From contig NC_002937.3 of NCBI RefSeq assembly GCF_000195755.1, forward strand, positions 2,070,001 to 2,102,000: DNA of 32,000 bases, written 5' to 3'. The notes below the pieces were generated by a model. The model was given only the letters and a program-made list of their open reading frames with translations, had not been told where the DNA came from and made no database searches. Of the stretch, positions 12,650 through 32,000 are shown piece by piece. Each line of letters begins with the position of its first letter. The stretch's first letter is position 1. Origin of the DNA: Nitratidesulfovibrio vulgaris str. Hildenborough. Lineage in GTDB: Bacteria; Desulfobacterota; Desulfovibrionia; Desulfovibrionales; Desulfovibrionaceae. The position numbers were made by a program, and so were the translations under genes.

Positions 12650-12852
12650 TTTATTAGTCCATACTTTTCCCTAACTTTCCCGACCCATCACAGATCTCCA
12701 CTTTTATACAGTAAGATTGCAATTTTAAATAATAAATCCTCAAATTAAACCTCCCCAAACCTTCCCGAACTTTCGCATTGTCACCCCGTAAAAGGTGGGG
12801 CTATAGTGGGGCTGCAAATTCTCTCACTGAAACATGCCACACAGAGGCCCCC

Positions 12853-14039
12853 ATGACTACGATGACTTCCACCAGCTACCGTGGCGTTCGCTACCGGGAA
12901 AGCCAAACCCGCAAACATGGGTCAAAACCAGACCGCTACTTCTTCATACGGTACAAAACCGATGGCAAATCAAAAGAAGAAGGTGCCGGATGGGCATCCG
13001 AGGGCATGACAAGCCAGAAGGCCTCTCAGCTGCGGGCCAGAATCACTGAAAACATCAGGCTTGGACGACGCCCCCAGTCTCTTGCCGAAATGCGCGAGAT
13101 GATGCGAGAGGCCCGCGAACAGGCAGCGATCGAAGAACGACGTGCTGCCAATGCAGCTACGACCATGAACGAATTCTGGGAAAAGCACTATCTGCCTTCA
13201 TCAACCCTGCACAAGACACCGCAGACGATGAAAACGGAATCTGGCTACTACGCAAAATGGATCAGGCCAGTCCTTGGAGATTCCGCCCTCAGCGACCTTA
13301 CCCCACCCTAATTGAGCAGGTGGCCAGCAATGCCATGACAGCAGGGCGCAGTGCAGCTACCATCCGCCACTTGCTGGCCATTATCTCCCAGATCTGGGGC
13401 ATGGCCCGCAACCATGAAATCGTCAACGGAGAGTGCCCCTGCACCCGCATCAAAAAACCTCGCAAAGACAACAGACGGATGCGTTTCTTGACTGAAGCCG
13501 AAGCGAGCACCCTACTCGTTGAGCTAGAAAAAAGATCAAAGGACACTCACGACAGCGCCCTACTATCGCTCTTCTGCGGCCTCAGAGCAGGGGAAATCCA
13601 CTCGCTCACCTGGACGGACCTCAACTTCACCTCGGGAACTATCTACATCCGTGACCCTAAAAACAAGCATAGCCGCCATGCCTACATGACTGATGAAGTC
13701 AGATCGATGCTCATAGAGAGATCCAAACAGTTAAACGCTACCGAATACGTTTTTCCGGCTCAAAACGGAGCAAAGCGCAACTGGGTTTCTGACACCTTCG
13801 AGCGCGTCGTCGACCAACTTGGCCTCAACGACGGGATCACCGACTCCAGACAACGTGTGGTGTTTCACACTCTTCGCCACACTTTTGCCAGCTGGCTCGT
13901 TCAAGACGGGACACCGCTGTATACCGTCGCCGAACTCATGGGGCATACAACGCTCGAGATGACTAAGCGTTATTCACATCTTAGCCCCGACACGGTCAGG
14001 GCTGCAGCATTAACACTTCAAGGCAGACTCAACAGATAG
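12853..14039 (+). pseudogene. int: tyrosine recombinase / phage-type integrase, split by a frameshift near 13301-13310
   Basis: ORF 12778..13311 (ATG at 12853 after AGAGG) encodes the N-terminal DNA-binding and core-binding part (SYRGVRYRES...WIRPVLGDSALSDLTPP*). ORF 13257..14039 in another frame continues ...LIEQVASN... into the catalytic domain (LFCGLRAGEI, HTLRHTFASW, GHTTLEMTKRYSH). Confidence 0.85.
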
Positions 14040-14855: not shown

Positions 14856-16238
14856 TGTGGACGGACTCCGCTTGTCCCTACGCCAATCCCAAGGCGGAAC
14901 AGGCTCTTTGTCATTCCAAAGACCTACACCCCCGTTCTTAGCGGCAGCCTCTAGCAGCCCGTTGATTTATTCATGATCAACACCGCTCGACGGCAATCTG
15001 AGTTCCGACGAATTCTTGGCCAGTCTCGCTCTTCATCTCAACCAAAATTATCGAAACGACCATCCGTCCCCAAACAATAATAAAAATTTGCGCTGAATTG
15101 AGGTAAAAATACCCCTTCGGGGTCCCGAAACCTATCAACTGACGCATTAGCAGGCCGAGATTGAACCCGGCCACACACAGGAGGTATCGTTTGTGGACGT
15201 TTTCCTGCCCTCGAAGGTGCGTTCTCCGCATACCTCCACGATCGAGCACATGCTGGAAACTTCGTTCGACCAATTCCGTTCGTCGCTTTGCCAGTTCGCG
15301 CCCTTTGGCTGACTTCAACCGGGCGCGGTTGTTGTAAACGGCCCGCCGCGCCTCGTGGTCACCTTTCCAGTTGAGCAGACCGTTCGCTTTCGGCACGGCG
15401 ATCCTCGTCCTCCAAACTCCGCCATCCAGTTCTTTCACTACTTCCCGGGAATGGTAGCCCTTGTCCGCGATGACTTCCGTTGGAGCCGTGGTAATCGGCG
15501 TACAACCGATGTCGGAAAGATTCTTCCTGGCGGATTCCAGCGTCTTGCCGATCGTCGTCGTATCCCCTTGGTCGGCCTTGTGGATGTCGGCGGAAACAAT
15601 CGCTCCGGTGTCCAGATCTACGGCGTGCTCGGGCTTGTAGGCGAGGTGAGTGCGGCTGTCCTTCATCTTGGTGATCCGCGCATCCTCGTCAATCTCCGAC
15701 TTCCAGTCCTTGTTCGAAAGCTTCTTTCCCTTGCGCTTGCGATCCATGCGAGCCAGTTCTTCACGGGTCGGCGTTTTGATCCCACTGTCCTTGGCGATGC
15801 GCTCAAGCATCTGCTGATACGTTTCGCCCGTGTCTCGGCGTACGATCGAGCGCATGGCCGCGTTGGCTTCCATGGTCGAGGCGTCGATGCCAAGACGTTC
15901 CCCAACTACCAGGCCGGACTTGGTCAGTGCCTGCAACACCCATCCGAACACTTCCTGATGAACTTCCAGAGGCAACCTCTGTCGGATTCTGCTCAGGCTG
16001 GAGTGATCAGGTACCCTCTGGGTCAGGGAGAGCCGCAGGAACTTTCGCAGCGACAAGGAGTCGGAACACCGCCACTCAAGCCCGCGCTCGCTCTCGATCC
16101 CTTCAAAATAGCCAACCAAGTGCATCCTGAAATAACGACCTGGAGGAATGGATTTCCTGCCGGGACCAGACGCATAATACGGCTCACAGACCTTCTCGAC
16201 AAAACGGTCAAAGCCGCCCTTGATCAAGACCGACTGCA

Positions 16239-17458
16239 TGTGCTGAGCTAGTTATTACCTGACAGTAGGCCCTTCAAAAGGAAGTGGTCATGCCGTTCCC
16301 GACTGGGGTAGCGATGAGGTTGCGAAGCTTCATCAACCACCAGCAAGGAATCCGACATGACCACAGGCAAGAAGGTAGCACGAAGGAAGTTGAGCCTGCT
16401 AGAGCTTGCAAGCGAACTCGACAACGTGAGCAAGGCGTGCCGCATCATGGGGTATTCGCGGCAGCAGTTCTATGAAATCCGCCGTAATTACCAGACGTTT
16501 GGCGCAGAAGGGCTTGTGGACCGCCTGCCGGGGCCACGAGAACCACACCCGAACCGGGTGGACGAGGCGACAGAGGATAGGATTTTGGCGTACAGCCTTG
16601 AATTTCCGACGCATGGCCCCGTCCGCGTGGCCCAACAGTTGGTTTTGCAAGGTGTTCAGGTCAGTTCCGGGGGCGTGCGGGGTGTCTGGAGCCGCAACGG
16701 GATGCTGACCCGACATGAACGGCTGCTGCGCCTGGAGCGGCATGTGCGTGATACCGGAATCGCCCTGAATGACGACCAGGTTCGCACCTTGGAGCGATTC
16801 AGCCCGGAATTCCGGGAGCGCCATATCGAAACCCGGTGCAGCGGCGATCTGGTGGCCGTGGATACGTTTTTCGTAGGCACGCTGAAGGGCGTGGGGAAAA
16901 TCTATCTGCAATCGGCCATCGACTGCCACAGCCGCTACGCCTTCGGCAGACTGTACACCAGCAAGCTGCCGGTTACGGCGGTACACATGCTCAACGAGTC
17001 CGTGCTGCCCTTTTTCGAGGAGCACGACACGCCGGTCGTCACAGTGCTTTCGGATAATGGCCGGGAATTCTGCGGGCGTCCTGACAGACACCCCTACGAA
17101 CTATTCCTGCAACTGGAAAATATCGAGCACCGGACAACCCGCGTCAGACGTCCGCAAAGCAACGGCTTTGTGGAGCGGCTGCACAGGACATTGCTCGACG
17201 AGCATTTCAGGATTCAGGGGCGAAAAAACTGGTATGAGTCTCTGGATGAAATGCAGGCAGACCTTGACGCCTACTTGCGCCACTATAACCACGAGCGGGC
17301 ACACCAAGGCAGAAACATGAGCGGCCGGACACCCTATCAAGCCTTCCTTGATAGCCGTCCCGAAGGGCAGCCGAAAGAAGACAACGAAGGACACTACGCA
17401 GCCTGATCAGCGCCCCAGCCGGGTACGGCAAGTGTCAGGTGAATACTATCTCTGTACA
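16239..17458 (+). mobile_element. IS481-family insertion sequence (1220 bp) with 7-bp target-site duplication
   Basis: Terminal inverted repeats start with TGT at 16239 and end with ACA at 17458, with about 24 of 32 positions matching. Identical GACTGCA copies flank the element at 16232-16238 and 17459-17465. Confidence 0.85.
16357..17406 (+). CDS. IS481-family transposase (HTH + rve integrase core)
   Basis: 349 aa with an N-terminal HTH (LSLLELASELDNVSKACRIMGYSRQQFYEIRRNY) and a DDE core (LVAVDTF ... VLSDNGREF ... RPQSNGFVERLHRTL ... YNHERAHQG). Confidence 0.9.
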   Translation: MTTGKKVARRKLSLLELASELDNVSKACRIMGYSRQQFYEIRRNYQTFGAEGLVDRLPGPREPHPNRVDEATEDRILAYSLEFPTHGPVRVAQQLVLQGVQVSSGGVRGVWSRNGMLTRHERLLRLERHVRDTGIALNDDQVRTLERFSPEFRERHIETRCSGDLVAVDTFFVGTLKGVGKIYLQSAIDCHSRYAFGRLYTSKLPVTAVHMLNESVLPFFEEHDTPVVTVLSDNGREFCGRPDRHPYELFLQLENIEHRTTRVRRPQSNGFVERLHRTLLDEHFRIQGRKNWYESLDEMQADLDAYLRHYNHERAHQGRNMSGRTPYQAFLDSRPEGQPKEDNEGHYAA

Positions 17459-19118: not shown

Positions 19119-19967
19119 TTAGTGCCATCCAAAAGTAGAGACTTCCTTGGGTGAATTTTTCAGGAGGAACTCTGCCGGGGTCAAATCGCCAAGAGACTCA
19201 TGGGGTCGTTCCTCGTTGTACTGCCGCAGCCAGTTCTCCGTAATTTCCTTCACTTCTGTAAGGGATTTGAACAGATAGAAGTCCAGAACCTCTTCCCGAT
19301 AGGTCTTGTTGAACCGCTCAATGTACGAATTCTGTGTGGGCTTGCCTGGCTGGATGAACTCCAATGCCACGCCGTTTTTCTCGGCCCAGTCGGCCAGCAG
19401 CACCGAAATCAGCTCCGGCCCGTTATCCATTCTCAATTTGGCAGGCAGCCCGCGCCAAGCCACTATTCGGTCCAAAACTCGCAAGACTCGTGCCGCTGGC
19501 AAATTCGTATCAACTTCGATAGCCAAACACTCACGGCTGAAGTCGTCCAACACATTGAACGTCCTGAACCTTTGACCACTAGCCAATGCGTCATGCATGA
19601 AGTCAATGGACCAGCAGACATTTGCGCATGGCGGAACCGCCAGTGGTTGCGGGTTTCGCGAGGGCAGGCGCTTCTTGCCTTTGCGCCGAAGGTTCATCTT
19701 TAAAAGACAATATACCCGGTAGACGCGTTTATGGTTCCAGCGAAAACCGTGTCGGCGCAATACCGCGAACAGCTTGCCGAAACCGTAACGAGGATACCTG
19801 TCGGCCAGCCCCAGGAGCGCTTCAATGATCGGCGAATCATCTCTCGGTTTGAGCTCATACCGGTACACTGTCCGGCTAAGCCCCAGCGCAGCGCATGACC
19901 GCCGCTCACTGAGGCCATGCTCGCTGTGTATGAAATCCGCCAAATCGCGCTTCTCGGCTGGCCTCAA
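19119..19967 (-). CDS. IS3-family transposase OrfB (rve integrase core)
   Basis: 282 aa with WSIDFMHD..., LRMDNGPELIS, PGKPTQNSYIERFNKTYREE and YNEERPHESLG. Confidence 0.9.
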   Translation of the reverse strand: MRPAEKRDLADFIHSEHGLSERRSCAALGLSRTVYRYELKPRDDSPIIEALLGLADRYPRYGFGKLFAVLRRHGFRWNHKRVYRVYCLLKMNLRRKGKKRLPSRNPQPLAVPPCANVCWSIDFMHDALASGQRFRTFNVLDDFSRECLAIEVDTNLPAARVLRVLDRIVAWRGLPAKLRMDNGPELISVLLADWAEKNGVALEFIQPGKPTQNSYIERFNKTYREEVLDFYLFKSLTEVKEITENWLRQYNEERPHESLGDLTPAEFLLKNSPKEVSTFGWH

Positions 19968-20302: not shown

Positions 20303-20436
20303 CTGTGAGGCCAAGGCCCAACGTCAGTAAATCGTTAGCTTCCACGGCTCCTTCCCTCCTGGGCAAAAGGAAAGGCTACGATGCGTCAGGAAGGAGAGTC
20401 AAGAAAGCTGATTTCCACGTCTCGCGGCGAGGAACC
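20303..20436 (-). repeat. 134-bp fragment of an ISL3-family element (terminal IR plus first ~25 codons of the transposase), identical to 25878-26011
   Basis: Base-by-base comparison shows 134/134 identity in direct orientation with 25878..26011. The fragment is cut on its inner side by the IS3 end at 20302. Confidence 0.9.
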
Positions 20437-23579: not shown

Positions 23580-24648
23580 TTTTTTCTCCCATACTGAATT
23601 TTAGTATCAAAAATTACAGACTTGTTTCTTCCAGTTCTTTTAGCTTCATACAAAGCTTTGTCAGCTTGATTATAACAATCAGAATGACTCATTCCATCTG
23701 TATACACAGAAGCGCCTATGCTAATCGTTATCTTGGACTTGTCTTTGGAAAATTCTTTTTCCACTACACTCCGAATTTTTTCAGCCAAAAGTAACGCGCT
23801 TTCGTGATCTGTCTCGGGTGACAAAACAGCAAATTCTTCCCCCCGATCCGGTAGAAAAAGTCTGTCTTTCTGATACATTGCCTGACCGTCCCTGCCATTT
23901 TTTTAAGAACCCTGTCTCCTTCTGTATGCCCTAAAGAATCGTTAACTTTTTTAAAATGATCTATGTCCATTATGAGCAATGAAAACTCCCTCTTGTTTCT
24001 CTCATATCTGTCTATTTCTTCTTTGATATCCAGGTCAAATTGACTCCTGTTATAAACAGACGTCAAACTGTCATGGCAGGAGCTATGCTCGACTTTTTGT
24101 ACAAAAATCTTCGATATCAAATAGAAAATGAATGACGAGCCAAAAAGGAAGAAAACATAATAGTATAGTTTTTTGATATTTGAAGTTTTACGATCTGATC
24201 CAATAACTTTCCTCAACATGAGAGAATTAGAACCACTCCAAATAGATTCACTCATTAATGACAGTTCTTGTAAAAATTGCTGCTGTCCAGCCCTGTTTTT
24301 ATACAAAACATCCTTAAATGCATTCCATTCACCATAAAGACTCTTAAAAGGCTGATATATCTCTGGGTCAAACCTAAATTCAGCCGCCTTGCCATCAGCA
24401 ACGTAAATAGCAAATATTTTATCCACCTCGCTAATAGAGAAATCAGCACTATCAATATTTTTAAGCAATTCAAATTTCAGAATTCTTTGTGTCGACCCAC
24501 GAATAAAACCTATGTTGCTAATAAGCTTGGCATCGCGCTCCAACGAAGAATGAATCGAATATATACTCCACACAATAAAAATATTAATAATAAAAAGAAT
24601 TAACGAAAAAAAAGATATCAGCTTTGATGCGAAAAGTTTTTTCATCAA
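23576..24648 (-). pseudogene. membrane sensor diguanylate cyclase (GGDEF), frameshifted in a G6 run inside the GGEEF codons
   Basis: ORFs 23764..24648 and 23576..23878 overlap in different frames. They join at the C6 run 23839-23844 (G6 on the coding strand). One extra G reads ...KTDFFYRIGGEEFAVLSPETDHES.... The N-terminus has 2 TM segments and a periplasmic helical region. Confidence 0.8.
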
Positions 24649-24663
24649 TCCCTCACGTTTTTA

Positions 24664-26011
24664 GGGTCTTCGACGTTAGCTGTGGAATTCACGCCTCCAA
24701 GAGTTGGGTGATGGGCGCTCCGATCAGGTAGATCATGGTGATGAAGGTTGTTACGTTCCGATACCCTCTGGCCCGCGAGCGAGCAGCCTGAAAGAGGCCA
24801 TTGAGCCCTTCCAAGCGAGCATTGGAAAGCAAGGAGTCCCATCTTCTCAATATTCGAGGCAAATGATCCTCGAACGTGTTCAGCGCCTTGCGTACCGGTG
24901 CGAGCAGAACCGAATCCCCGGCAAGTTCCCGAGCGAATTCGAAAAACCGCGTTGCTCGCCATCGCGCACCCTGCCTGGTGTCAGCTTTGCGCACCCACCG
25001 CAGCAGTTCCTTCACCCGAAACGCGGTGGCTGTCGCCAATCCACGTTCCTCCAACTCCTTGAGCGCCGCGACCTGCTCCTCGATACGCCAAGTTTCCAGG
25101 CCCTTGAGAACCGCCCACCGGGCAGCCTTGGGAAGTATGACCTCTCTGGCTTCCAGACGCCTGACCTCGTCGAGGGCTTTGGTGAAAATCTGAACCACAT
25201 GGAACCAGTCCACGGTTACAGCGGCATTTCTGAAGGTCGCCTCGGCCGCCGACAGAAAAGCTGGTGACATGTCGCAGACCACCTCGACCACGTTCTCCGG
25301 ATTGCCCTGACGCCCTTTGAGGTACGCGGCAAAGGTCTTGAGGCATTCCTTGCCTTTGCCTGGAGTCGCGAAGACCACCGGGCGGCTTTCCCGGTCCATG
25401 TCCACGAAGATGGTGACGTAATGATGGCCACGCTTGGTTGCCGTTTCGTCAAGGCCGATTCCGCACAGTCGGCTGAGATCAAGCTTGCCCATGCCCTTCA
25501 AGACGTAGTGCGTCACGACCCGCCATATCCGCTTGTCGGTGACGCCGACGTAACGCGCCACGGCGTTGACCGGCATCTCTCGGGCAAGAAGCATGACCGC
25601 TTGCTCGAAAAGCAGGGTGAACCCGCTGCCAGGCCGTGCCCATGGGACATTGACGCGCTTGAGGCCATGTTCCGGGCATCTCACTCGGGGGACACGGGCC
25701 TTGATCAGGCAGTGATGCTGGAAGAAGTTGAGATGCCGCCAGCTGAACTCAGCGAAATCATGGGCCTTACACAACGCACCGCACGCCGGGCAAGGGTAGC
25801 GCTCACCTCTCGCGGCCTCGACCTCAAGGCGAAGTTCGCTTGGCTGCTTTGAAAGGTCCAGAGACTGGTCCACGACTCGCCAGGGAGCTGTGAGGCCAAG
25901 GCCCAACGTCAGTAAATCGTTAGCTTCCACGGCTCCTTCCCTCCTGGGCAAAAGGAAAGGCTACGATGCGTCAGGAAGGAGAGTCAAGAAAGCTGATTTC
26001 CACGTCTCGCG
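24664..26011 (-). mobile_element. ISL3-family insertion sequence (1348 bp)
   Basis: Terminal IRs are GGGTCTTCGACGTTAGCTGTGGAATTCA (24664-24691) and GGTTCCTCGCCGCGAGACGTGGAAATCA (reverse complement of 25984-26011), matching at 20/28. The transposase stop lies inside the IR. The 8-bp flanks are only partly alike (cgttttta versus agttttct). Confidence 0.8.
24689..25951 (-). CDS. ISL3-family transposase
   Basis: 420 aa with a zinc-ribbon-like CPACG...CPEHG, then GIGLDETATKRGHHYVTIFVDMD and VCDMSPAFLSAAEATFRNAAVTVDWFHVVQ. Confidence 0.9.
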   Translation of the reverse strand: MPRREGAVEANDLLTLGLGLTAPWRVVDQSLDLSKQPSELRLEVEAARGERYPCPACGALCKAHDFAEFSWRHLNFFQHHCLIKARVPRVRCPEHGLKRVNVPWARPGSGFTLLFEQAVMLLAREMPVNAVARYVGVTDKRIWRVVTHYVLKGMGKLDLSRLCGIGLDETATKRGHHYVTIFVDMDRESRPVVFATPGKGKECLKTFAAYLKGRQGNPENVVEVVCDMSPAFLSAAEATFRNAAVTVDWFHVVQIFTKALDEVRRLEAREVILPKAARWAVLKGLETWRIEEQVAALKELEERGLATATAFRVKELLRWVRKADTRQGARWRATRFFEFARELAGDSVLLAPVRKALNTFEDHLPRILRRWDSLLSNARLEGLNGLFQAARSRARGYRNVTTFITMIYLIGAPITQLLEA

Positions 26012-26186
26012 GCGAGGAACCAGTTTTCTTTTCAATTGAACGGAACAGGTTGGAAAGCGTTGATTTGCCGGTGCCATTCCAGCCATAGAACAGATTCTTC
26101 TCCTTGAAATCCAGCAGGTCCAGGGGCCAGACGAACCCACGGAAGATCCGATGGCTTTTGATTTTGCTTATCCGTTCAATGGTCAT
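26012..26186 (-). pseudogene. N-terminal 55-56 codons of a P-loop AAA ATPase (AAA_13 / PrrC-RloC-like start), truncated by ISL3
   Basis: The product is MTIERISKIKSHRIFRGFVWPLDLLDFKEKNLFYGWNGTGKSTLSNLFRSIEKKT, after which the ISL3 inverted repeat begins at 26011. The start overlaps the brxL stop by 11 nt. Confidence 0.6.
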
Positions 26187-28245
26187 TGTCAGATTCTCCG
26201 GTTTTGATGAACGTCACCTCGAACGCCTTGCATGGTCGGCATTGCTGCAAGCGATTGGCGAAGGTAAAGGCATCGTTCATCTCATAGTGCTGAAAGATGT
26301 CTAGGCCACGATCCAGGGAGATTTTCCAGCCGTGGTCGGTGACGATATGGCGGGCATGGATCGTCCCGGTGCCGTCGAACTCCCAGGTGAAGTTCACTCC
26401 TACGCTGCAGGCGGCTTCCTTCATCTTCTCGAAGTTGTCCTTCTGCTGTTCGCCTTTGAACTCGTCTTCCGTGGTCACCAGATGCACGGACACTTCCTCA
26501 TCCGGGGCCTTGTGTTTGACCACGGTCTCCAAAAATTCCATGAAGTTGCGCACCTGGTAGAACAGGCGGATGTATGGATCGGTGACGGTGATCGTGGTCG
26601 CGCCCTTGAGATAAGGGCCGAGCAGCGTATCGAAGGAGAGGCCCTTCTGGTTCTCCTGGAATGTGAGGTGCTTTTCCTTGAGGACGGGCTCGGCCGGAGC
26701 TAGGGGTTCGGATGGACCTTGGGGCGAGTCCGGTTGCGCAGCTTCCAAGATTTCCCCGTCTTCGCCCTCGGCGATGGTCTTGTGGTAGTAGCCGGGGTAT
26801 TCCTCTTCTTCGAGCGTGGTGACAGGCTTGGCCCGACCATCAGTGTCTTGATAGGTAAAGCGGACGTTGCCGTAGGTGGAGTCGATGCGCATCAATTGGT
26901 CTTTGACGCGCTTGCGGCCTTCAATCGCGAACCTTAGCAGTTCCTCGACCTCTTCCTTTGTTGCTCCACCATGCGGAAAGAGGATCTTCATCAGACCGGA
27001 GAACGTCTTGTTGATGCCATCGCGGTCCCGCGTCGAAATATCGGAGGAGAGGGAGAAGTGGTCCTTGTAGCGGTCCGAGTAATCGTGATTGCGCAGTGAG
27101 CGAAGGATCTCGGCCAGGTAGTCCACCACGAAACCATAACCGTTGGAGAACATCTCGCCCCGGATGATGTCCACCTCCCAGCCGGGGATGTAGAAATGGA
27201 TGCGGTCCAAAAACGCGGAGTCGTAGAATTTGTCGGGCAACTCGCAGAACAGGTCAGAGTGCTTGAGCATGTAGGGCACGGTGTGCTGGGTGTTGCCCAC
27301 GAAAACCATGGACGCCTCCGCGCCCAGCGTCTCGACGCCCCGCGAGAAGGACTTGTTGGCCATGTAGTTCTTCATGATGTCGACGAGGGCCTTGTCCACG
27401 CGCTTTTGCTTTCCGGCAAACTCGTCGAAGGCAACGCAATCCCAGTAGCCGACCAGGCCGATCTTTCCGGAAGAGTTGTTTACGAACAGCTTGGGAACCG
27501 TAACCTCGCCGCCGGAGATCAGGATGCCGTGAGGCGAGAACTCCGAGTAGATGTGCGATTTGCCGGTCCCCTTGGGGCCAAGCTCGATCAGGTTGTAGTT
27601 GCGCTCGCAAAACGGGATCAGACGGACCAGTTGGGTCAGCTTGCTGCGCTTGCCGAACATCTCCGGGTTGAAGCCGATGCTTTGCACCAGCAGGTCGATC
27701 CACTCGTCGGTGGTGAATTGTTTGCGGGCCTCAACATAGCCGTCGAAATCGAAATGGGAGAGCTGGATCGGCTTGAGGGTCGACAATATCCAGGGGCTGG
27801 CGCTTTTGTCTTCGGTAAACTCATATTCCAGATCAGCGATGCACCACACGCCGCCGACCAGAAGCTTGGGGTGCTTTTTTACCGTTCCGGAATCAACAAG
27901 AACCTCTTTTAGCCCTAAGTTGGAGAACTGCGCCTGATAAACATCCTTCTTGTCGTTCAGATCTACACTGATCTTGTCGATGACCTTGTAGCGCCCCTTT
28001 TCCTTGATGTTCGAGCGGACCAATCCGGCTTCGTTCCGGTGAACATAATGCTTGGCAAGGATCTCCTTGACCGTCTCGATGCCGGTCTGGATGGTCGGCT
28101 CATCGCTGGTGGCGCAATACTGTCCTAGCAGGTATTCCAGCACGTAGGAGGGAACGATGGCGTTGCCCTTGACCGTCTTGACGAGATCCTTGCGGACAAC
28201 GAGTCCCGGGAAGTGTGTGTTGATTTTCTGGTCAAGTTCGTTCAT
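26176..28245 (-). CDS. brxL: BREX BrxL-like AAA+ protein with a non-canonical C-terminal MIT_C/PLD-like domain in place of the Lon-protease-like domain
   Basis: 689 aa. The N-terminal ~478 aa are colinear with BrxL (VVRKDLVKTVKGNAIVPSYVLEYLLGQYCA, GPKGTGKSH, GLVGYWDCVAFDEF, FYIPGWE). The C-terminal 164 aa do not look Lon-like (see findings). Confidence 0.85.
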   Translation of the reverse strand: MNELDQKINTHFPGLVVRKDLVKTVKGNAIVPSYVLEYLLGQYCATSDEPTIQTGIETVKEILAKHYVHRNEAGLVRSNIKEKGRYKVIDKISVDLNDKKDVYQAQFSNLGLKEVLVDSGTVKKHPKLLVGGVWCIADLEYEFTEDKSASPWILSTLKPIQLSHFDFDGYVEARKQFTTDEWIDLLVQSIGFNPEMFGKRSKLTQLVRLIPFCERNYNLIELGPKGTGKSHIYSEFSPHGILISGGEVTVPKLFVNNSSGKIGLVGYWDCVAFDEFAGKQKRVDKALVDIMKNYMANKSFSRGVETLGAEASMVFVGNTQHTVPYMLKHSDLFCELPDKFYDSAFLDRIHFYIPGWEVDIIRGEMFSNGYGFVVDYLAEILRSLRNHDYSDRYKDHFSLSSDISTRDRDGINKTFSGLMKILFPHGGATKEEVEELLRFAIEGRKRVKDQLMRIDSTYGNVRFTYQDTDGRAKPVTTLEEEEYPGYYHKTIAEGEDGEILEAAQPDSPQGPSEPLAPAEPVLKEKHLTFQENQKGLSFDTLLGPYLKGATTITVTDPYIRLFYQVRNFMEFLETVVKHKAPDEEVSVHLVTTEDEFKGEQQKDNFEKMKEAACSVGVNFTWEFDGTGTIHARHIVTDHGWKISLDRGLDIFQHYEMNDAFTFANRLQQCRPCKAFEVTFIKTGESDNDH

Positions 28246-28259
28246 CGGTCACCCGTCCT

Positions 28260-30758
28260 TTAAAAGTCGAAGTCACTAGTAAATGAGCGCCGTACCAAGT
28301 ACCGGATCGACTTGTATTCCTTGTAATGTGAAGTCCCGGCGTGCTTTTCCTCCAGCCGTAGAATGACTTCCTGGCCGTTGGCCTCGTCGGCCTTGCGGGT
28401 GAGCACGAAGCGCACCTGCAGCTCCCGCTCCCGGGGATTGTCCGAGCTCAGATCAAAGGTCAGGTCGTGGCTGTCGGAGATCAGGTCGCCTGCCTCGGTG
28501 TAGATGCCAGCCCGCAGCACACGCGGCTGGATCTTGTCCGTCACCGGTCCGGCCTGGTACATGGTCACCACCAATTGCCCGGAGGTGATCACCGAGCTGG
28601 CTCCGCGCAGGATGTCCACCTCGACGGCGGTGACATCGCTCTGGCGCTTCTTGTTGATCTTGAGCACCGGGATCACCACCTCCTGCAACGATGCGCCGCC
28701 ATGCACAAAGCGGCTGCCGGAGCCCTTCAGACGCAGGCGGTTGATCGACTTGGGAATCTGCACCTCCACCTCACCTGCAAGGCCAAGCGGCTCGGGGGTG
28801 AACTTGTGCAGGCTGGATGCCTCGGCAAGCCCCTTGCCGAGCACGAAGCGGCGGTCCCGGAACAGAATCTGTTCACCCTCGGCATCGACCCCGGAAAAGT
28901 CGCTCTCGTCGATGGCGCGGTTCTGGTAGATGAAGCCATGGTCCGAGGTCACCAGCAAGTTGTTGGCGTTGGCCCCGGTCAGCTTCTTGATCAGGCGAAT
29001 CAGCTCCTGCAGGGTTTCTTCCACCGCCTCGAAAACCCGCTCCTCGGATTCACGCTTGTCGCCGGTGGCATCGATGCGGTTGTGGTAGACGTAGATCACG
29101 TCGTGATCGCGCACCAGCGCCCGGCAGTCGTCACCCTTCATGGCCATCAGTTCATCGGCCTTGCAGGCCGTAGCTCGATGACTGATCGCCTGGCCAAGGA
29201 TCTTGATGCGATTGGCCGTACCCTGCGAACTTTGCCCATCCACCAGCACGGTACCGGTTTCATTGTCGGCAATCGCCAACGCCTTGTTGGGCAACAGCGC
29301 CGCCATACCGAGCTGGGTGTAGCTGGGCAGCATTGAAAGGGCCGGTTCCAGTTCTGCGCTGTAACGATCCTCCTGACGGATCAGGCTCAGCAGCTCATCA
29401 CCGATCTCGTAGCGCATGGCATCGGAGATGATCACGCAGACCTTGTTATCCTTGCGCAGGAACGGCCGGACCCAGTGCTCGAAAAACTCCTTCTGCTTGC
29501 GCACCGGGAAGGCTTCCCACTTCGTTGCCGCGTCCACGAAGGTCTGGAAACGGTCGCCCAGCTTCAGCAGGTAGTTGTTGGAGTAGAGGTTTTCGACCTG
29601 GTCGGTCAGGCTGCCCATCAGCGACGCCTGCCCCGACATGCGCACGTGGTAAGTGAACTTGCGGTAGAGCTGATCCAGCTGATACCAGAAGCGGCTGTAG
29701 CGCTGCACGCCCTCGGCCAGGCTGTCCATGGCGAGCTTGGCCTCGCCCAGGGCATTGGTAAACTGGGCGGCGTAATCGACCGCCTCGTACAGATGCCGGT
29801 ATTCGCGATACCAGTGCCCTTGCCGCCGCTGGCGAACCCAGATCGCCACGTCACCGCTGGAGGCCGTGCGGGCTGCCACCGCCCGCACCAGGTCGCTGAT
29901 GATCTTCTGGTCGATCAGGCGGAAGTAATCCAGCTCGATCAACTCGCGGAAATCCCGCTTGGTCAGATCCTGCTCAATGCCAAGGACCTCGGCGCATTCC
30001 CCCGAGAGGGTCTCGAAGCCGCCCTCGAACTGACGGCTATCCTTCCAGCGCTTGAGAAACACCAGGGCGTCGCCGGTCAGTTTCACCTGGCCGTCGGTGC
30101 CCATGGCGTAGCAGGACTTGAACAGCTCGATGGCGAAGTCGCGGATGCCCGGTTCCTCAGACTTGTAGCCATAGCAGCGGGTCATCTGTTCCCAGAGGAA
30201 ACCGTCCAGGCTGCACCGGCCAACCAGCTTGATCTTCTCGTCGCGACCGTCGGCCAGCTCCTGCAGCAGGTTTTCCACCACCGCATCCATGCGCGGCTCG
30301 CTGCCGGTGCATACCGCCAGCATCTTCAGGCGAATCTGCCCGGCGGTGTCGTCGGCTTTCAGCAGCTTCTTGAGGGCGTCCTTGCGTTTGATCGCTTGAA
30401 AGAACTCCGCATGGGCCTGCACCACATCCGTGAACTCCAGGCCGAGCTCCAGTTCGGACAGCCAGATGGCCACCTGATCGGTGCGGAACTCGCCGTGGGC
30501 CAGTTGCACATCCAGCAGCCAGTTATCCAGATCGGCGGGCTGAGGGCCTTCTCGGTAGAGCAGGAATTTCTGTTCCGGTTGCTCGCGCAGCAGCTTGTAC
30601 TTGATGCCGTACTCGTTGTTGGTCAGTTCCAGCTTTTCGACACCGGGTAGATGAAGTGCCTCGAAATCGTCGCGCAACTCCAGCTTGGCGTCGTACCAGA
30701 AGACGATCCGGTGCCGGTCGAAGAGTTTGGTCAGGGCCTGGGCAATGCGGTCGTTCAT
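28260..30758 (-). CDS. pglZ: BREX-1 alkaline-phosphatase-superfamily protein PglZ
   Basis: 832 aa with the typical N-terminus MNDRIAQALTKLFDRHRIVFWYD and a PglZ core (VIISDAMRYE ... TSDHGF). It lies between pglX and brxL. Confidence 0.9.
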   Translation of the reverse strand: MNDRIAQALTKLFDRHRIVFWYDAKLELRDDFEALHLPGVEKLELTNNEYGIKYKLLREQPEQKFLLYREGPQPADLDNWLLDVQLAHGEFRTDQVAIWLSELELGLEFTDVVQAHAEFFQAIKRKDALKKLLKADDTAGQIRLKMLAVCTGSEPRMDAVVENLLQELADGRDEKIKLVGRCSLDGFLWEQMTRCYGYKSEEPGIRDFAIELFKSCYAMGTDGQVKLTGDALVFLKRWKDSRQFEGGFETLSGECAEVLGIEQDLTKRDFRELIELDYFRLIDQKIISDLVRAVAARTASSGDVAIWVRQRRQGHWYREYRHLYEAVDYAAQFTNALGEAKLAMDSLAEGVQRYSRFWYQLDQLYRKFTYHVRMSGQASLMGSLTDQVENLYSNNYLLKLGDRFQTFVDAATKWEAFPVRKQKEFFEHWVRPFLRKDNKVCVIISDAMRYEIGDELLSLIRQEDRYSAELEPALSMLPSYTQLGMAALLPNKALAIADNETGTVLVDGQSSQGTANRIKILGQAISHRATACKADELMAMKGDDCRALVRDHDVIYVYHNRIDATGDKRESEERVFEAVEETLQELIRLIKKLTGANANNLLVTSDHGFIYQNRAIDESDFSGVDAEGEQILFRDRRFVLGKGLAEASSLHKFTPEPLGLAGEVEVQIPKSINRLRLKGSGSRFVHGGASLQEVVIPVLKINKKRQSDVTAVEVDILRGASSVITSGQLVVTMYQAGPVTDKIQPRVLRAGIYTEAGDLISDSHDLTFDLSSDNPRERELQVRFVLTRKADEANGQEVILRLEEKHAGTSHYKEYKSIRYLVRRSFTSDFDF

Positions 30759-31222
30759 GAAAGATTCCTTGAACCGCGAAAGGCGCTAAAATCGCGAAAA
30801 TTAGAGTTAGCAATGCGAACGATTTCAACTTTTGGATATGCGCCGAAGTTGACCAGCAGGCCGAGTTCAAGACCCGTCGCCTTGAGGTAGTTCAAAAGCT
30901 GGGCTTTATGCTCTGAAGCAATCTCTTTAACCGATTTCAACTCAACAATAATATTGCCGTAGCAGATAAAGTCGGGCTTGTAGGTTTGAGATAGGGGCTG
31001 GCTTTTGTATGACAGAAGAAGCTCCTTCTGGGCCTCAAACGGCAACTCCCGTGATCTGAACTCCTTTTCCAGACACTCCTGATAGACAGCTTCAAGGAAC
31101 CCGCAGCCCATTTCTCGATATACCTCAAAGATCGCTCCCTGAATGGCATAGCATTCATCTTTGAAGAGAAGTTCTTCTTTAGCGCCTTTCGCGCTTTTTG
31201 CGGTTAAATCTTCGTGGTTCAT
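30755..31222 (-). CDS. GxxExxY family protein (PD-(D/E)XK nuclease superfamily)
   Basis: 155 aa with the signature GFLEAVY, a D...ELK nuclease-type motif (DFICYGNIIVELK) and the LLNYLKATGLELGLLVNFG tail. Its start overlaps the pglX stop (TGATG) and its stop overlaps the pglZ start (ATGA). Confidence 0.85.
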   Translation of the reverse strand: MNHEDLTAKSAKGAKEELLFKDECYAIQGAIFEVYREMGCGFLEAVYQECLEKEFRSRELPFEAQKELLLSYKSQPLSQTYKPDFICYGNIIVELKSVKEIASEHKAQLLNYLKATGLELGLLVNFGAYPKVEIVRIANSNFRDFSAFRGSRNLS

Positions 31223-32000
31223 CAGTCTTCCTTGGCATCGAGTCCGGGTATTTTCTTTAATGCAGATCCGAGTTTGGGGTAGTTGACCTTCACGCCGTCG
31301 TCGAGGTCGATCTCCACCTGCTCGGTGGCCAGCGGGTAAAGCACCTCGCGCTCGTACTCCTCCATCTCGGCGATCATCTTGGTGATCTTCTCGATCTCCT
31401 TCAGGGCCTTGGTCTTCTCGCCCTGGCTGCTGCTGGCACTGATGCTGACCGCCTCCAGATGGTTCTTGTGCGAGGTGAGCTTGGTGCGGAACTCGCGCAG
31501 GTAGTCGTTGAGCACCACGCTGGCTGTATCCGGGCGGTAGCGGTGCATGTAGATCAGCGCGTTGAAGCTGCCCTTGGGGCTGGAGAACAGCCAGTAGATG
31601 GGGCGCTTTTTGTAGCGTTTCACATGATCGGTGTAAAACTCGCCAAGGAAGTAGTCGCGGATGCTGTAATTGCGCTTGCCCTTGATGTTCAGTGCCTGCT
31701 CGACGAACCGGAGGTTGGCCTCGTAGTGCTCCTCGCCAAAGGCCACACGCAGGAACTTGCGGAAGCGCTCGGCGATGTCGTCGGTGAACCAGTCGCCGTC
31801 CAGCATGGGGATGACGTTGTCGTCATCGGCTGGGAAGCTGGGCTCCGGAACCCGCTTTAGGTAGTCCTCGATGGTCTCGCCCTGGTTGGCCAGGATCAGA
31901 CCCGGCTTATCCAGCGCATAACGTCCAAACATGCAGCCCACGGCATAGGAAACCAGCTCCCGCATGGTGTCGGCCAGCAACAGAGCCTCCAGTTCATCCT
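31222..32000 (-). CDS. pglX: BREX-1 adenine-specific DNA methyltransferase PglX, C-terminal part (5' end outside window)
   Basis: The frame is open to the window edge. The C-terminal region has RPIYWLFSSPKGSFNALIYMHRYRPDT..., typical of PglX and type IIG methyltransferase tails. Its position upstream of pglZ supports the call. Confidence 0.8.
   Translation of the reverse strand, partial: DELEALLLADTMRELVSYAVGCMFGRYALDKPGLILANQGETIEDYLKRVPEPSFPADDDNVIPMLDGDWFTDDIAERFRKFLRVAFGEEHYEANLRFVEQALNIKGKRNYSIRDYFLGEFYTDHVKRYKKRPIYWLFSSPKGSFNALIYMHRYRPDTASVVLNDYLREFRTKLTSHKNHLEAVSISASSSQGEKTKALKEIEKITKMIAEMEEYEREVLYPLATEQVEIDLDDGVKVNYPKLGSALKKIPGLDAKED

What the first reader, a model, noticed from the sequence alone, without database searches (positions are those of the whole stretch)
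26176..28245. BrxL with its Lon-protease-like C-terminus replaced by a MIT_C / phospholipase-D-like module
Residues 1 to about 478 (28245 down to about 26812) are colinear with canonical BREX BrxL as I remember it. Shared landmarks are the N-terminal VVRKDL..VP.YVLEYLLG.YCA block, Walker A GPKGTGKS, GLVGYWD.VAFDE and YIPGWE. Canonical BrxL then continues into a roughly 200-aa Lon-protease-like domain. Here there is instead a 47-aa acidic/Pro-rich linker (26671-26811) and a 164-aa module (26179-26670). That module matches, motif for motif and in the same order, the PLD-like C-terminal domain of eukaryotic MITD1 (Pfam MIT_C, from memory). The matching blocks are GLSFDTLLGPYL, ITVTDPYIRLFYQVRNFMEFLE, VHLVTTEDE, IHARHIVTDHGWKISLDRGLDIFQ and RPCKAFEVTFI. 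It also retains an H-x-R-x4-D string (IHARHIVTD, about 26335-26358), placed like the HxK(x)4D signature of single-HKD nucleases that act as dimers. That would make the least understood BREX component a candidate nuclease or phosphodiesterase effector. I know of no description of this architecture.
Basis: partly seen in the sequence, partly recalled or inferred. Interest (0 to 1): 0.8.

Follow-up and report, generated by a model that had tools for sequence, protein, structure and literature searches.

The report
Known BrxL variant with PLD-like tail
The gene is a real BREX phage-defence protein (BrxL) whose usual dead Lon-protease tail is replaced by a phospholipase-D-like "MIT_C" module, but this form is common, already published and catalogued, and its suspected nuclease activity remains untested.

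Summary
ORF 26176-28245(-) encodes a 689-aa BrxL with BrxL_N, a BrxL AAA+ ATPase, a 47-aa acidic/Pro-rich linker, and a full-length MIT_C domain (E=1e-46). There is no Lon_C match. An AF2 model of the tail (pLDDT 88.8) superposes on human MITD1 (TM 0.81-0.89, 1.9 A) and more weakly on catalytic PLD-superfamily enzymes. H630 and R632 of the HxRx4D string are near-invariant.

The novelty claim fails.
- The protein is WP_010939301.1 of Nitratidesulfovibrio vulgaris, which NCBI names BrxL.
- PADLOC has a BrxL HMM (PDLC02508) that covers it end to end.
- Li et al. 2025 (PMC12065111) reported MIT_C at the C-terminus of many BrxL proteins.
- A 2026 BREX survey (PMC12839542) found it in 1030 of 2913 Type-1 BrxL and called it an HKD-endoDNase with an HRD motif.
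- My own scan found it in 73 of the 80 most similar species-representative loci.

The nuclease reading is plausible but unproven. The domain has no sequence-level match to HKD enzymes. The same K-to-R change inactivates PLD1. The only documented roles of MIT_C in MITD1 are membrane binding and dimerisation.

Verdict: real, ordinary, already known.

The parts
26176..28245 (-). brxL, 689 aa, MIT_C-type (identical to WP_010939301.1 / AAS96494.1 / UniProt Q72AH6)
27823..28215 (-). BrxL_N domain (aa 11-141)
   Evidence: Pfam PF20442, E=2e-50
26857..27789 (-). BrxL AAA+ (MCM-like) ATPase domain (aa 153-463)
   Evidence: Pfam PF13337, E=2e-133; aligns to 8EMC
27556..27579 (-). Walker A, GPKGTGKS (aa 223-230)
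27421..27435 (-). Walker B, VAFDE (aa 271-275); identical in 8EMC. 8EMH carries the E-to-Q mutant at this position
26671..26811 (-). Acidic, Pro/Ala-rich variable linker (aa 479-525)
   Evidence: 13 D/E, 7 P, 3 K/R. 71 distinct versions among 117 proteins that are otherwise 93-100% identical, length 43-49 aa. It is the least conserved segment against the P. aeruginosa homologue (83% aa)
26203..26643 (-). MIT_C / PLD-fold module (aa 535-681)
   Evidence: Pfam PF16565, 155 bits against a cut-off of 25, full profile. AF2 pLDDT 88.8. Foldseek match to MITD1, TM 0.81-0.89
26566..26580 (-). D556-P-Y-I-R560 block (conserved acidic residue after beta-2)
   Evidence: D556 in 119/119, 103/106 and 73/73 homologues
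26335..26358 (-). H630-A-R632-H-I-V-T-D637: the HxRx4D string, lying just before and within a predicted beta-strand
   Evidence: H 120/120, 102/106, 70/71. R 119/120, 102/106, 70/71. D637 is D or N (103:16, 88:17, 60:9). Secondary structure
26299..26328 (-). W640-K-I-S-L-D-R-G-L-D649: second near-invariant block, in the position of the GSxN segment of HKD enzymes
   Evidence: W640 120/120 and 106/106; R646, G647 and D649 each at least 93%
28260..30758 (-). pglZ (BREX-1 type A phosphatase), 14 nt upstream of brxL
   Evidence: TIGR02687, 1222 bits; PF08665
30755..31222 (-). PDDEXK_3 accessory gene (155 aa) inserted between pglX and pglZ
   Evidence: PF13366, E=1.5e-42
31222..32000 (-). 3' end of pglX (the gene runs off the window)
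   Evidence: PADLOC PglX models, E down to 4e-122; intact 1158-aa gene in L001
25971..26186 (-). 71-aa stub of an AAA_13 / PDC-S06 gene, overlapping the brxL stop by 11 nt and truncated by an IS
   Evidence: PF13166 matches aa 12-55. PDC-S06 matches 1-66 of 740 positions. Sister loci carry an intact 858-aa AAA_13 gene at the same position
24689..25951 (-). ISL3-family transposase gene; the IS end lies at about 26021
   Evidence: PF01610, PF13542 and PF14690; 134-nt repeat boundary

Best explanation
Identity (near certain, about 0.97): this is the brxL gene of a complete Type-1 BREX system in Nitratidesulfovibrio vulgaris. The gene order is brxA, brxB, brxC, an AAA_21 gene plus a 179-aa gene, pglX, PDDEXK_3, pglZ, brxL. 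It belongs to the known, widespread BrxL subclass in which the catalytically dead Lon-like C-terminal domain is replaced by a MIT_C (PLD-fold, 'HKD/HRD') module.

Mechanism (inferred, about 0.5): the conserved N-terminal DNA-binding region and MCM-like AAA+ ATPase assemble into a ring on DNA, as shown for Lon-type BrxL. The variable 43-49-aa acidic/Pro-rich linker tethers the PLD-fold modules flexibly. Two modules from neighbouring protomers or rings pair, as single-HKD nucleases and MITD1 do. They would build a composite His630/Arg632 site, supported by D556, R560, R646 and D649. That site would hydrolyse phosphodiester bonds of unmodified invading DNA through a metal-independent phospho-histidine intermediate. 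This would add a nuclease layer alongside PglZ and the accessory nucleases in the locus.

Shown here: the domains, the fold, residue conservation and the locus context. Inferred: oligomerisation of the tail, catalysis, and DNA as the substrate.
For: Domain calls. Colinearity with 8EMC up to residue 481, and with MITD1 for the tail. Confident model (pLDDT 88.8, pTM 0.85), with H630/R632 immediately before a beta-strand, then a hairpin, then the W640...D649 block, which is the HKD topology. Foldseek ranks MITD1 first, followed almost exclusively by PLD-superfamily proteins (Zucchini nuclease E=2e-4, PssA, PLD1/2, SauUSI restriction nuclease TM 0.50, PLD3). H630, R632, D556, W640, R646, G647 and D649 are near-invariant in 120 close homologues, 106 distant representatives and 73 species-representative homologues down to 35% identity. 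The module also occurs fused to other nucleic-acid-binding or nuclease domains (BrxA; S1 repeats; DUF7669+DUF6884+GIY-YIG). Complete BREX-1 locus. pglZ lies directly upstream in 78/80 related loci. The BrxL C-terminus behaves as an exchangeable slot (Lon-like, MIT_C, SLFN_AlbA_2, none). There is purifying selection on the tail (31 synonymous to 19 nonsynonymous codon changes against the P. aeruginosa homologue). Two papers independently propose the same reading: PMC12065111 and PMC12839542.
Against: No enzymatic activity has been reported for any MIT_C domain. In MITD1 (31% identical, with the same H, R and RGLD residues) the domain is described as membrane-binding, and MITD1 forms homodimers. 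The canonical HKD lysine is arginine here, and the equivalent K898R change is the standard catalytically inactive allele of PLD1. There is no sequence-level match to PLDc/PLDc_2 or to any solved HKD enzyme, so the link is fold-level only (TM 0.46-0.50, rmsd 5-7 A). The motif's Asp (D637) is Asn in 11-16% of homologues, as in MITD1. The domain it replaces in canonical BrxL is itself non-catalytic, so the C-terminal position may be structural. I could not superpose residues or model the dimer with these tools.
Confidence: 0.5

Rival explanations
1. The MIT_C module is non-catalytic. It would be a dimerisation and/or phosphate-ligand or membrane-binding module, as documented for MITD1. It could hold BrxL rings together or place them at the inner membrane where phage DNA enters, much as the inactive Lon-like domain plays a structural role in canonical BrxL.
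For: MITD1's PLD-like domain mediates membrane association and is not needed for MITD1's antiviral effect. MITD1 forms homodimers. K-to-R in the HKD motif inactivates PLD1. There is no sequence-level HKD membership. The canonical BrxL tail lacks its catalytic dyad.
Against: About 15-20 polar residues, including His/Arg in the HKD-like position, are near-invariant from bacteria to human, which is more typical of an active or ligand site than of an interface. The module is repeatedly fused to nucleic-acid-binding or nuclease domains. In some BrxL proteins the same slot is occupied by a Schlafen/AlbA_2 domain, from a family with known RNase members.
Confidence: 0.3
2. The module is an active PLD-type phosphodiesterase, but its substrate is not phage DNA. 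It might act on RNA, on a nucleotide or cyclic-nucleotide signal, on a DNA-protein or 5'/3'-phosphate adduct (as Tdp1 does), or on a phospholipid.
For: The PLD superfamily covers lipids, nucleic acids and DNA adducts. One homologue pairs MIT_C with S1 RNA-binding repeats. MITD1 binds membranes. The His-Arg pair departs from the canonical DNase HKD motif.
Against: BrxL's other domains bind and encircle DNA (8EMC). The fusion to the DNA-binding protein BrxA and the BREX context both point to DNA.
Confidence: 0.15
3. The tail is a decaying relic with no role in this genome.
For: The locus lies in an IS-rich island, and the neighbouring AAA_13 gene is destroyed by an ISL3 insertion.
Against: The ORF is intact and identical in many assemblies (148 contigs). 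The tail is under purifying selection and all conserved residues are retained.
Confidence: 0.03

Closest known systems
BrxL-HKD / BrxL-MIT_C variant of Type-1 BREX (Li et al. 2025, PMC12065111; NAR 2026 BREX survey, PMC12839542; PADLOC PDLC02508; NCBIfam TIGR02688)
   Same: The domain order, the HRD (HxR...D) motif and the position after pglZ in a BREX-1 locus are identical. The PADLOC model covers aa 1-682 and TIGR02688 scores 693 bits against a cut-off of 329.
   Different: Nothing substantive; this is a member. The local peculiarities are accessory genes inside the locus and an IS-truncated downstream AAA_13 gene.
Canonical Lon-type BrxL (Acinetobacter BrxL, PDB 8EMC/8EMH; NCBIfam TIGR02653)
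   Same: Residues 3-481 are colinear (E=2.6e-151), with identical Walker A and B cores. Both lie in BREX-1 context after pglZ.
   Different: The C-terminal roughly 200-aa Lon-like (inactive) domain is absent. TIGR02653 matches only positions 2-471 of 675 and falls below its cut-off (619.8 < 628.25). There is no Lon_C Pfam hit.
Human MITD1 C-terminal PLD-like domain (PDB 4A5Z, 2YMB; Pfam MIT_C PF16565)
   Same: Same Pfam family (E=1e-46), 31% identity, TM 0.81-0.89 and rmsd 1.9 A. D556, Y558, R560, Q564, N567, H630, R632, G639, W640 and R646-G-L-D649 are shared.
   Different: MITD1 pairs the domain with an ESCRT-III-binding MIT domain and uses it for membrane binding. It has N instead of D637, M instead of K641 and G instead of D645. 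No catalysis is known for it.
Single-HKD PLD-superfamily nucleases (Nuc, Zucchini/PLD6, BfiI, the SauUSI nuclease domain)
   Same: Same fold class (Foldseek: Zucchini E=2e-4, SauUSI TM 0.50). A His-x-basic-x4-Asp string starts a beta-strand and is followed by a hairpin and a conserved polar loop.
   Different: Arg replaces the motif's Lys. There is no GSxN signature and no PLDc/PLDc_2 sequence match. The structural similarity is only moderate (TM below 0.5 apart from SauUSI).

Membership tests
BREX Type-1 BrxL (BrxL_N + BrxL_ATPase core; TIGR02688) | BrxL_N domain and BrxL AAA+ ATPase domain with intact Walker A and B | tested here: met
   PF20442 2e-50; PF13337 2e-133; TIGR02688 693 bits against a cut-off of 329; GPKGTGKS and VAFDE present
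BREX Type-1 BrxL (BrxL_N + BrxL_ATPase core; TIGR02688) | Encoded directly after pglZ in a locus with brxA, brxB, brxC and pglX | tested here: met
   Window: pglX 3' end, PDDEXK_3, pglZ, brxL. The full locus with brxA, brxB and brxC is seen in L001
Lon-type BrxL (TIGR02653) / peptidase S16 Lon_C | C-terminal Lon-protease-like domain | tested here: not met
   No Lon_C hit at E<=1. TIGR02653 matches only 2-471 of 675 positions and scores below its cut-off. PADLOC PDLC02506 matches only 6-487 of 680 positions. The tail folds as PLD
BrxL-MIT_C ('BrxL-HKD') subclass (PADLOC PDLC02508; PMC12065111; PMC12839542) | BrxL core followed by a MIT_C/PLD-fold domain carrying the H-x-R (HRD) motif | tested here: met
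   PDLC02508 covers 1-682 against 1-695 of 698 positions, 1240 bits. MIT_C 1e-46. H630/R632 are conserved. 73 of the 80 closest species loci share the architecture
Pfam MIT_C (PF16565) | Full-length match above the gathering score, and the MITD1-like fold | tested here: met
   155.5 bits against 25, profile positions 1-142/142. TM 0.81-0.89 to 4A5Z/2YMB
PLD-superfamily HKD nucleases (PLDc_2; Nuc/Zucchini/BfiI) | HxK(x)4D(x)6GSxN signature and a PLDc/PLDc_2 profile match | tested here: not met
   Lys is Arg, there is no GSxN, and there is no PLDc hit at E<=1. A profile search of PDB sequences finds only MITD1
PLD-superfamily HKD nucleases (PLDc_2; Nuc/Zucchini/BfiI) | PLD fold | tested here: met
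   After MITD1, nearly all Foldseek hits are PLD-superfamily proteins (Zucchini 2e-4, PssA, PLD1/2, SauUSI, PLD3)
PLD-superfamily HKD nucleases (PLDc_2; Nuc/Zucchini/BfiI) | Dimer-built active site and His-dependent, metal-independent phosphodiester hydrolysis | not testable with these tools
   This needs multimer modelling or cryo-EM plus biochemistry. No experimental report was found

The most novel reading that the evidence does not exclude
The MIT_C tail is not a DNase. As in MITD1, it would be a phosphate- or lipid-headgroup-directed PLD-fold module that docks the DNA-encircling BrxL ring at the inner membrane, at the site of phage DNA entry. More generally, the BrxL C-terminus would be an exchangeable slot (dead Lon, MIT_C, Schlafen/AlbA_2, none) that decides where or how the same AAA+ platform acts. 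The conserved His-Arg site shared with human MITD1 would then point to a common, still unknown ligand or substrate in bacteria and eukaryotes.
Probability: 0.15. Interest if true: 0.6.

Novelty: already known. Interest (0 to 1): 0.2.

Why it matters
BrxL is the least understood BREX component, and how BREX stops phage DNA is still debated. A BrxL subclass that carries a possible phosphodiesterase is a natural handle on that question. However, it has already been recognised in print (2025, 2026) and in annotation resources, and it makes up about a third of Type-1 BrxL proteins. This window therefore adds one ordinary member. What remains open is experimental: whether the His-Arg PLD-like site is catalytic, given that K-to-R inactivates canonical PLDs and that MITD1 has no known activity. 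The D. vulgaris or P. aeruginosa proteins would be suitable for that test.

Tried and rejected
- **Lon_C/S16 in the tail:** no hit at E<=1, so rejected.
- **Sequence-level link to HKD enzymes:** there was no Pfam PLDc/PLDc_2 hit. A profile of 40 tails searched against all PDB sequences at E<=10 found only MITD1.
- **Experimental data on MIT_C-type BrxL:** the searches 'BrxL'+'MIT_C', 'BrxL'+'phospholipase D', 'BrxL'+'HKD' and 'MIT_C'+'nuclease'+'defense' turned up only the two comparative-genomics papers.
- **Hadders et al. 2012 (PMC3491508):** not held. 'MITD1'+'PLD'+'HKD' gave nothing. Statements about MITD1 therefore rest.
- **Terminal inverted repeats of the ISL3 element:** none convincing. 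The boundary was inferred from the 134-nt repeat instead.
- **Near-identical DNA on plasmids:** only five distant brxL matches at 72-75% identity.
- **tRNA genes as island boundaries:** none in the window.
- **Extreme cross-phylum protein identity as a sign of unusual constraint:** rejected in favour of recent horizontal transfer, given 91% nucleotide identity and only 19% third-position differences against P. aeruginosa.
- **Not attempted:** a full-length or multimer structure prediction. Only near-identical full-length homologues were available, and the tool models monomers only.
Full report
**1. The observation**

The window has an ATG-initiated ORF at 26176..28245 on the minus strand, encoding 689 aa. 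H630-D637 (HARHIVTD) maps to 26335-26358.

- Pfam finds BrxL_N (aa 11-141, 2e-50), BrxL_ATPase (153-463, 2e-133) and MIT_C (535-681). The MIT_C match covers profile positions 1-142 of 142, at E=1e-45 in the whole protein and 1e-46 for the tail alone.
- There is no Lon_C/S16 hit even at E<=1.
- Against solved structures, residues 3-481 align with the Lon-type BrxL 8EMC residues 8-486 (E=2.6e-151). The alignment ends where 8EMC's Lon-like domain begins.
- Residues 524-674 align with human MITD1 (2YMB, 4A5Z; E~1e-16).
- The segment between the two parts (aa 479-525) has 13 D/E, 7 P and 3 K/R.

**2. What the tail is**

I predicted residues 521-689 with a 40-sequence alignment. The model is confident (mean pLDDT 88.8, pTM 0.85) and forms an alternating beta/alpha fold.

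Foldseek against the PDB puts MITD1 first by a wide margin (TM 0.81-0.89, rmsd 1.9-2.0 A, 31% identity, E~1e-16). Nearly all remaining hits are PLD-superfamily proteins: mouse Zucchini/PLD6 (E=2e-4), phosphatidylserine synthase, PLD1/PLD2, Streptomyces PLD, the SauUSI restriction nuclease (TM 0.50) and PLD3. The fold assignment is therefore sound.

At sequence level there is no link to canonical HKD enzymes. Pfam PLDc/PLDc_2 gives no hit, and a profile of the tail family searched against all PDB sequences at E<=10 finds only MITD1.

**3. Conservation of the candidate site**

I checked three sets of homologues: 120 from a C-terminal query (56-98% identity), 106 full-domain representatives from the 50%-identity library (37-80%), and 73 species-representative genomic homologues (35-97%).

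| Residue | 120 close | 106 distant | 73 genomic |
|---|---|---|---|
| H630 | 120/120 | 102/106 | 70/71 |
| R632 | 119/120 | 102/106 | 70/71 |
| D556 | 119/119 | 103/106 | 73/73 |
| W640 | 120/120 | 106/106 | 70/70 |
| D637 (D:N) | 103:16 | 88:17 | 60:9 |

- R646, G647 and D649 are each at least 93% conserved in all three sets.
- The motif's Asp (D637) alternates with Asn, and human MITD1 has Asn there.
- MITD1 shares D556, Y558, R560, Q564, N567, H630, R632, G639, W640 and R646-G-L-D649.
- In the model, H630/R632 sit immediately before strand 633-636. A hairpin then leads to strand 640-644 and the D645-D649 loop. By my knowledge of PLD structures, this is the arrangement of HxK(x)4D...GSxN in HKD enzymes. 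I could not superpose residues to confirm it.

**4. Context**

The identical protein is WP_010939301.1 / AAS96494.1 / UniProt Q72AH6 of Nitratidesulfovibrio (Desulfovibrio) vulgaris, which NCBI names 'BREX system Lon protease-like protein BrxL'.

- In the window, brxL follows pglZ (28260-30758; TIGR02687, 1222 bits), a 155-aa PDDEXK_3 gene (30755-31222) and the 3' end of pglX.
- In strain RCH1 (L001), the rest of the system lies beyond the window edge: brxA, brxB, brxC, an AAA_21 ATPase plus a 179-aa gene, then pglX. This is a complete Type-1 BREX with embedded accessory genes.
- Downstream, a 71-aa stub of an AAA_13/PDC-S06 gene overlaps the brxL stop and is cut by an ISL3 element. Sister loci in P. 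aeruginosa and others carry an intact 858-aa AAA_13 gene there.

**5. How common it is, and whether it is known**

*Annotation resources*
- PADLOC (2023) has a dedicated BrxL model, PDLC02508, that covers aa 1-682 including the tail. The tail alone scores 248 bits against it.
- NCBIfam separates this lineage (TIGR02688, 693 bits) from the Lon-type equivalog TIGR02653, which matches only the first 471 positions and falls below its cut-off.

*My own searches*
- More than 120 clusters at the 90% level are 93-100% identical over the whole length and have the same three Pfam domains. They come from Pseudomonas, Bordetella, Aromatoleum, Chlorobium, Aeromonas, Leptospirillum and CPR bacteria.
- The isolated domain has 1106 representatives at the 50%-identity level.
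- I scanned species-representative genomes with the BrxL N-terminal and ATPase region. At least 595 loci matched. Of the 80 closest, each from a different species, 73 carry MIT_C, 2 begin it and are then broken off (one by a premature stop, one by a masked N-run), 3 are cut by contig ends, and 2 carry a different tail.
- pglZ lies directly upstream in 78 of those 80 loci.

*Literature*
- Li et al. [quoted passage not shown] WP_019470419.1)' and propose that both are enzymes.
[quoted passage not shown] It notes a K-to-R 'HRD' motif and proposes an auxiliary nuclease role.

**6. Mechanism**

*What is shown.* The DNA-binding and AAA+ core is intact. The linker is the most variable part of the protein: 71 versions among 117 near-identical proteins, 43-49 aa long, rich in Glu, Pro and Ala, and 83% identical against 97% for the ATPase in the P. 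aeruginosa comparison. The tail is a PLD-fold module under purifying selection, with a conserved His/Arg-centred polar cluster.

*What is inferred.* Pairs of tethered tails would form a composite His site and cut DNA engaged by the ring.

*In support.*
- The module recurs next to nucleic-acid-related domains: BrxA; S1 repeats; DUF7669+DUF6884+GIY-YIG.
- The BrxL C-terminus behaves as an exchangeable slot.

*Against.*
- No MIT_C domain has a reported activity.
- MITD1's domain is described as mediating membrane association, and MITD1 forms homodimers.
- The same Lys-to-Arg change is the standard catalytically dead allele of PLD1. The published statement that HRD 'likely preserves' activity is therefore an assumption.
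- Canonical BrxL carries a dead domain in the same position.

I put the nuclease reading at about 0.5, a non-catalytic binding or dimerisation role at about 0.3, and a non-DNA substrate at about 0.15.

**7. Verdict**

The feature is real, correctly described, and a member of a known and common BrxL subclass. Novelty is 'already known' and interest is low (0.2). The open question, whether the site is catalytic, is experimental and is not specific to this window.

Noticed in passing
L084:1589-3598 (+) and L085:4001-6013 (+) (Anaerolineae MAGs DYML01000111.1, JBEKFY010000016.1): A third BrxL C-terminal class. BrxL_N and BrxL_ATPase (about 74% identical to the window's) are followed by an acidic linker and then a SLFN_AlbA_2 (Schlafen) domain (PF04326, E=2e-20 and 9e-19) in place of Lon or MIT_C. 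The main text of the 2026 BREX survey mentions Schlafen only as separate neighbouring genes. I did not check its supplements.
   Followed up: partly
P0279 / L008:1297-2484 (PDWI01034893.1): The MIT_C module is also fused to BrxA (BrxA aa 7-172, MIT_C 248-393). This gene is not in a BREX locus. It lies upstream of CTD2, MComp1 and a 985-aa SMC-like AAA_15 gene, which looks like a ternary conflict system. Other architectures seen were DUF7669+MIT_C+DUF6884+GIY-YIG (P0327) and two N-terminal MIT_C matches plus S1 repeats (P0265).
   Followed up: partly
window 25971-26186 (-), 24689-25951 (-): The gene after brxL is a 71-aa stub of an AAA_13 / PDC-S06 defence-candidate gene. It overlaps the brxL stop by 11 nt and is truncated by an ISL3-family insertion. 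The Pfam match ends at stub residue 55, which corresponds to position 26022. Sister loci carry an intact 858-aa AAA_13 gene followed by SbcD and SbcC.
   Followed up: yes
window 20303-20436 and 25888-26021: A perfect 134-nt direct repeat, 5585 nt apart. It consists of the ISL3 end plus the first codons of its transposase. The second copy is a solo fragment next to an IS3-type element (19119-19967). The repeats bracket the hybrid-cluster-protein (Prismane) gene, an ODP/flavodoxin gene, a partial GGDEF gene and the ISL3 transposase gene. This suggests IS-mediated rearrangement. No convincing terminal inverted repeats were found.
   Followed up: partly
window 26176-30758 compared with L004/L006/L007: brxL and pglZ are 91% and 90% identical at the nucleotide level to those of P. 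aeruginosa and other proteobacterial ICE-borne loci, with only 19% third-position differences. GC is about 0.55-0.61. The BREX cassette has therefore been transferred recently across phyla. The genes inserted between pglX and pglZ differ: PDDEXK_3 here, and AAA_21 plus a 174-aa gene, SIR2_2, DUF87 and a 591-aa gene there.
   Followed up: yes
L001:4456-6056 (beyond the window edge) and window 30755-31222: Accessory genes are embedded in the BREX operon. An AAA_21/AAA_15 ATPase (354 aa) plus a 179-aa gene lie between brxC and pglX, and a PDDEXK_3 nuclease-family gene lies between pglX and pglZ.
   Followed up: partly
window 12778-14039 (+), 14977-16239 (-), 16357-17406 (+), 19119-19967 (-): The region is dense in mobile elements. 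It holds a tyrosine recombinase split over two overlapping ORFs (SAM-like N-terminal domain, then Phage_integrase), a DDE_Tnp_1/DUF772 transposase, and two rve-type (IS3/IS481-like) transposases. GC dips to 0.40-0.47 at 7-9 kb, 17-19 kb and 23-25 kb. There are no tRNA genes in the window.
   Followed up: no
window 23764-24648 (-): A 294-aa ORF has only the first 88 of 161 GGDEF profile positions at its C-terminal end. It is probably a truncated diguanylate cyclase gene next to the ISL3 element, and the public annotation of L001 does not call it.
   Followed up: no
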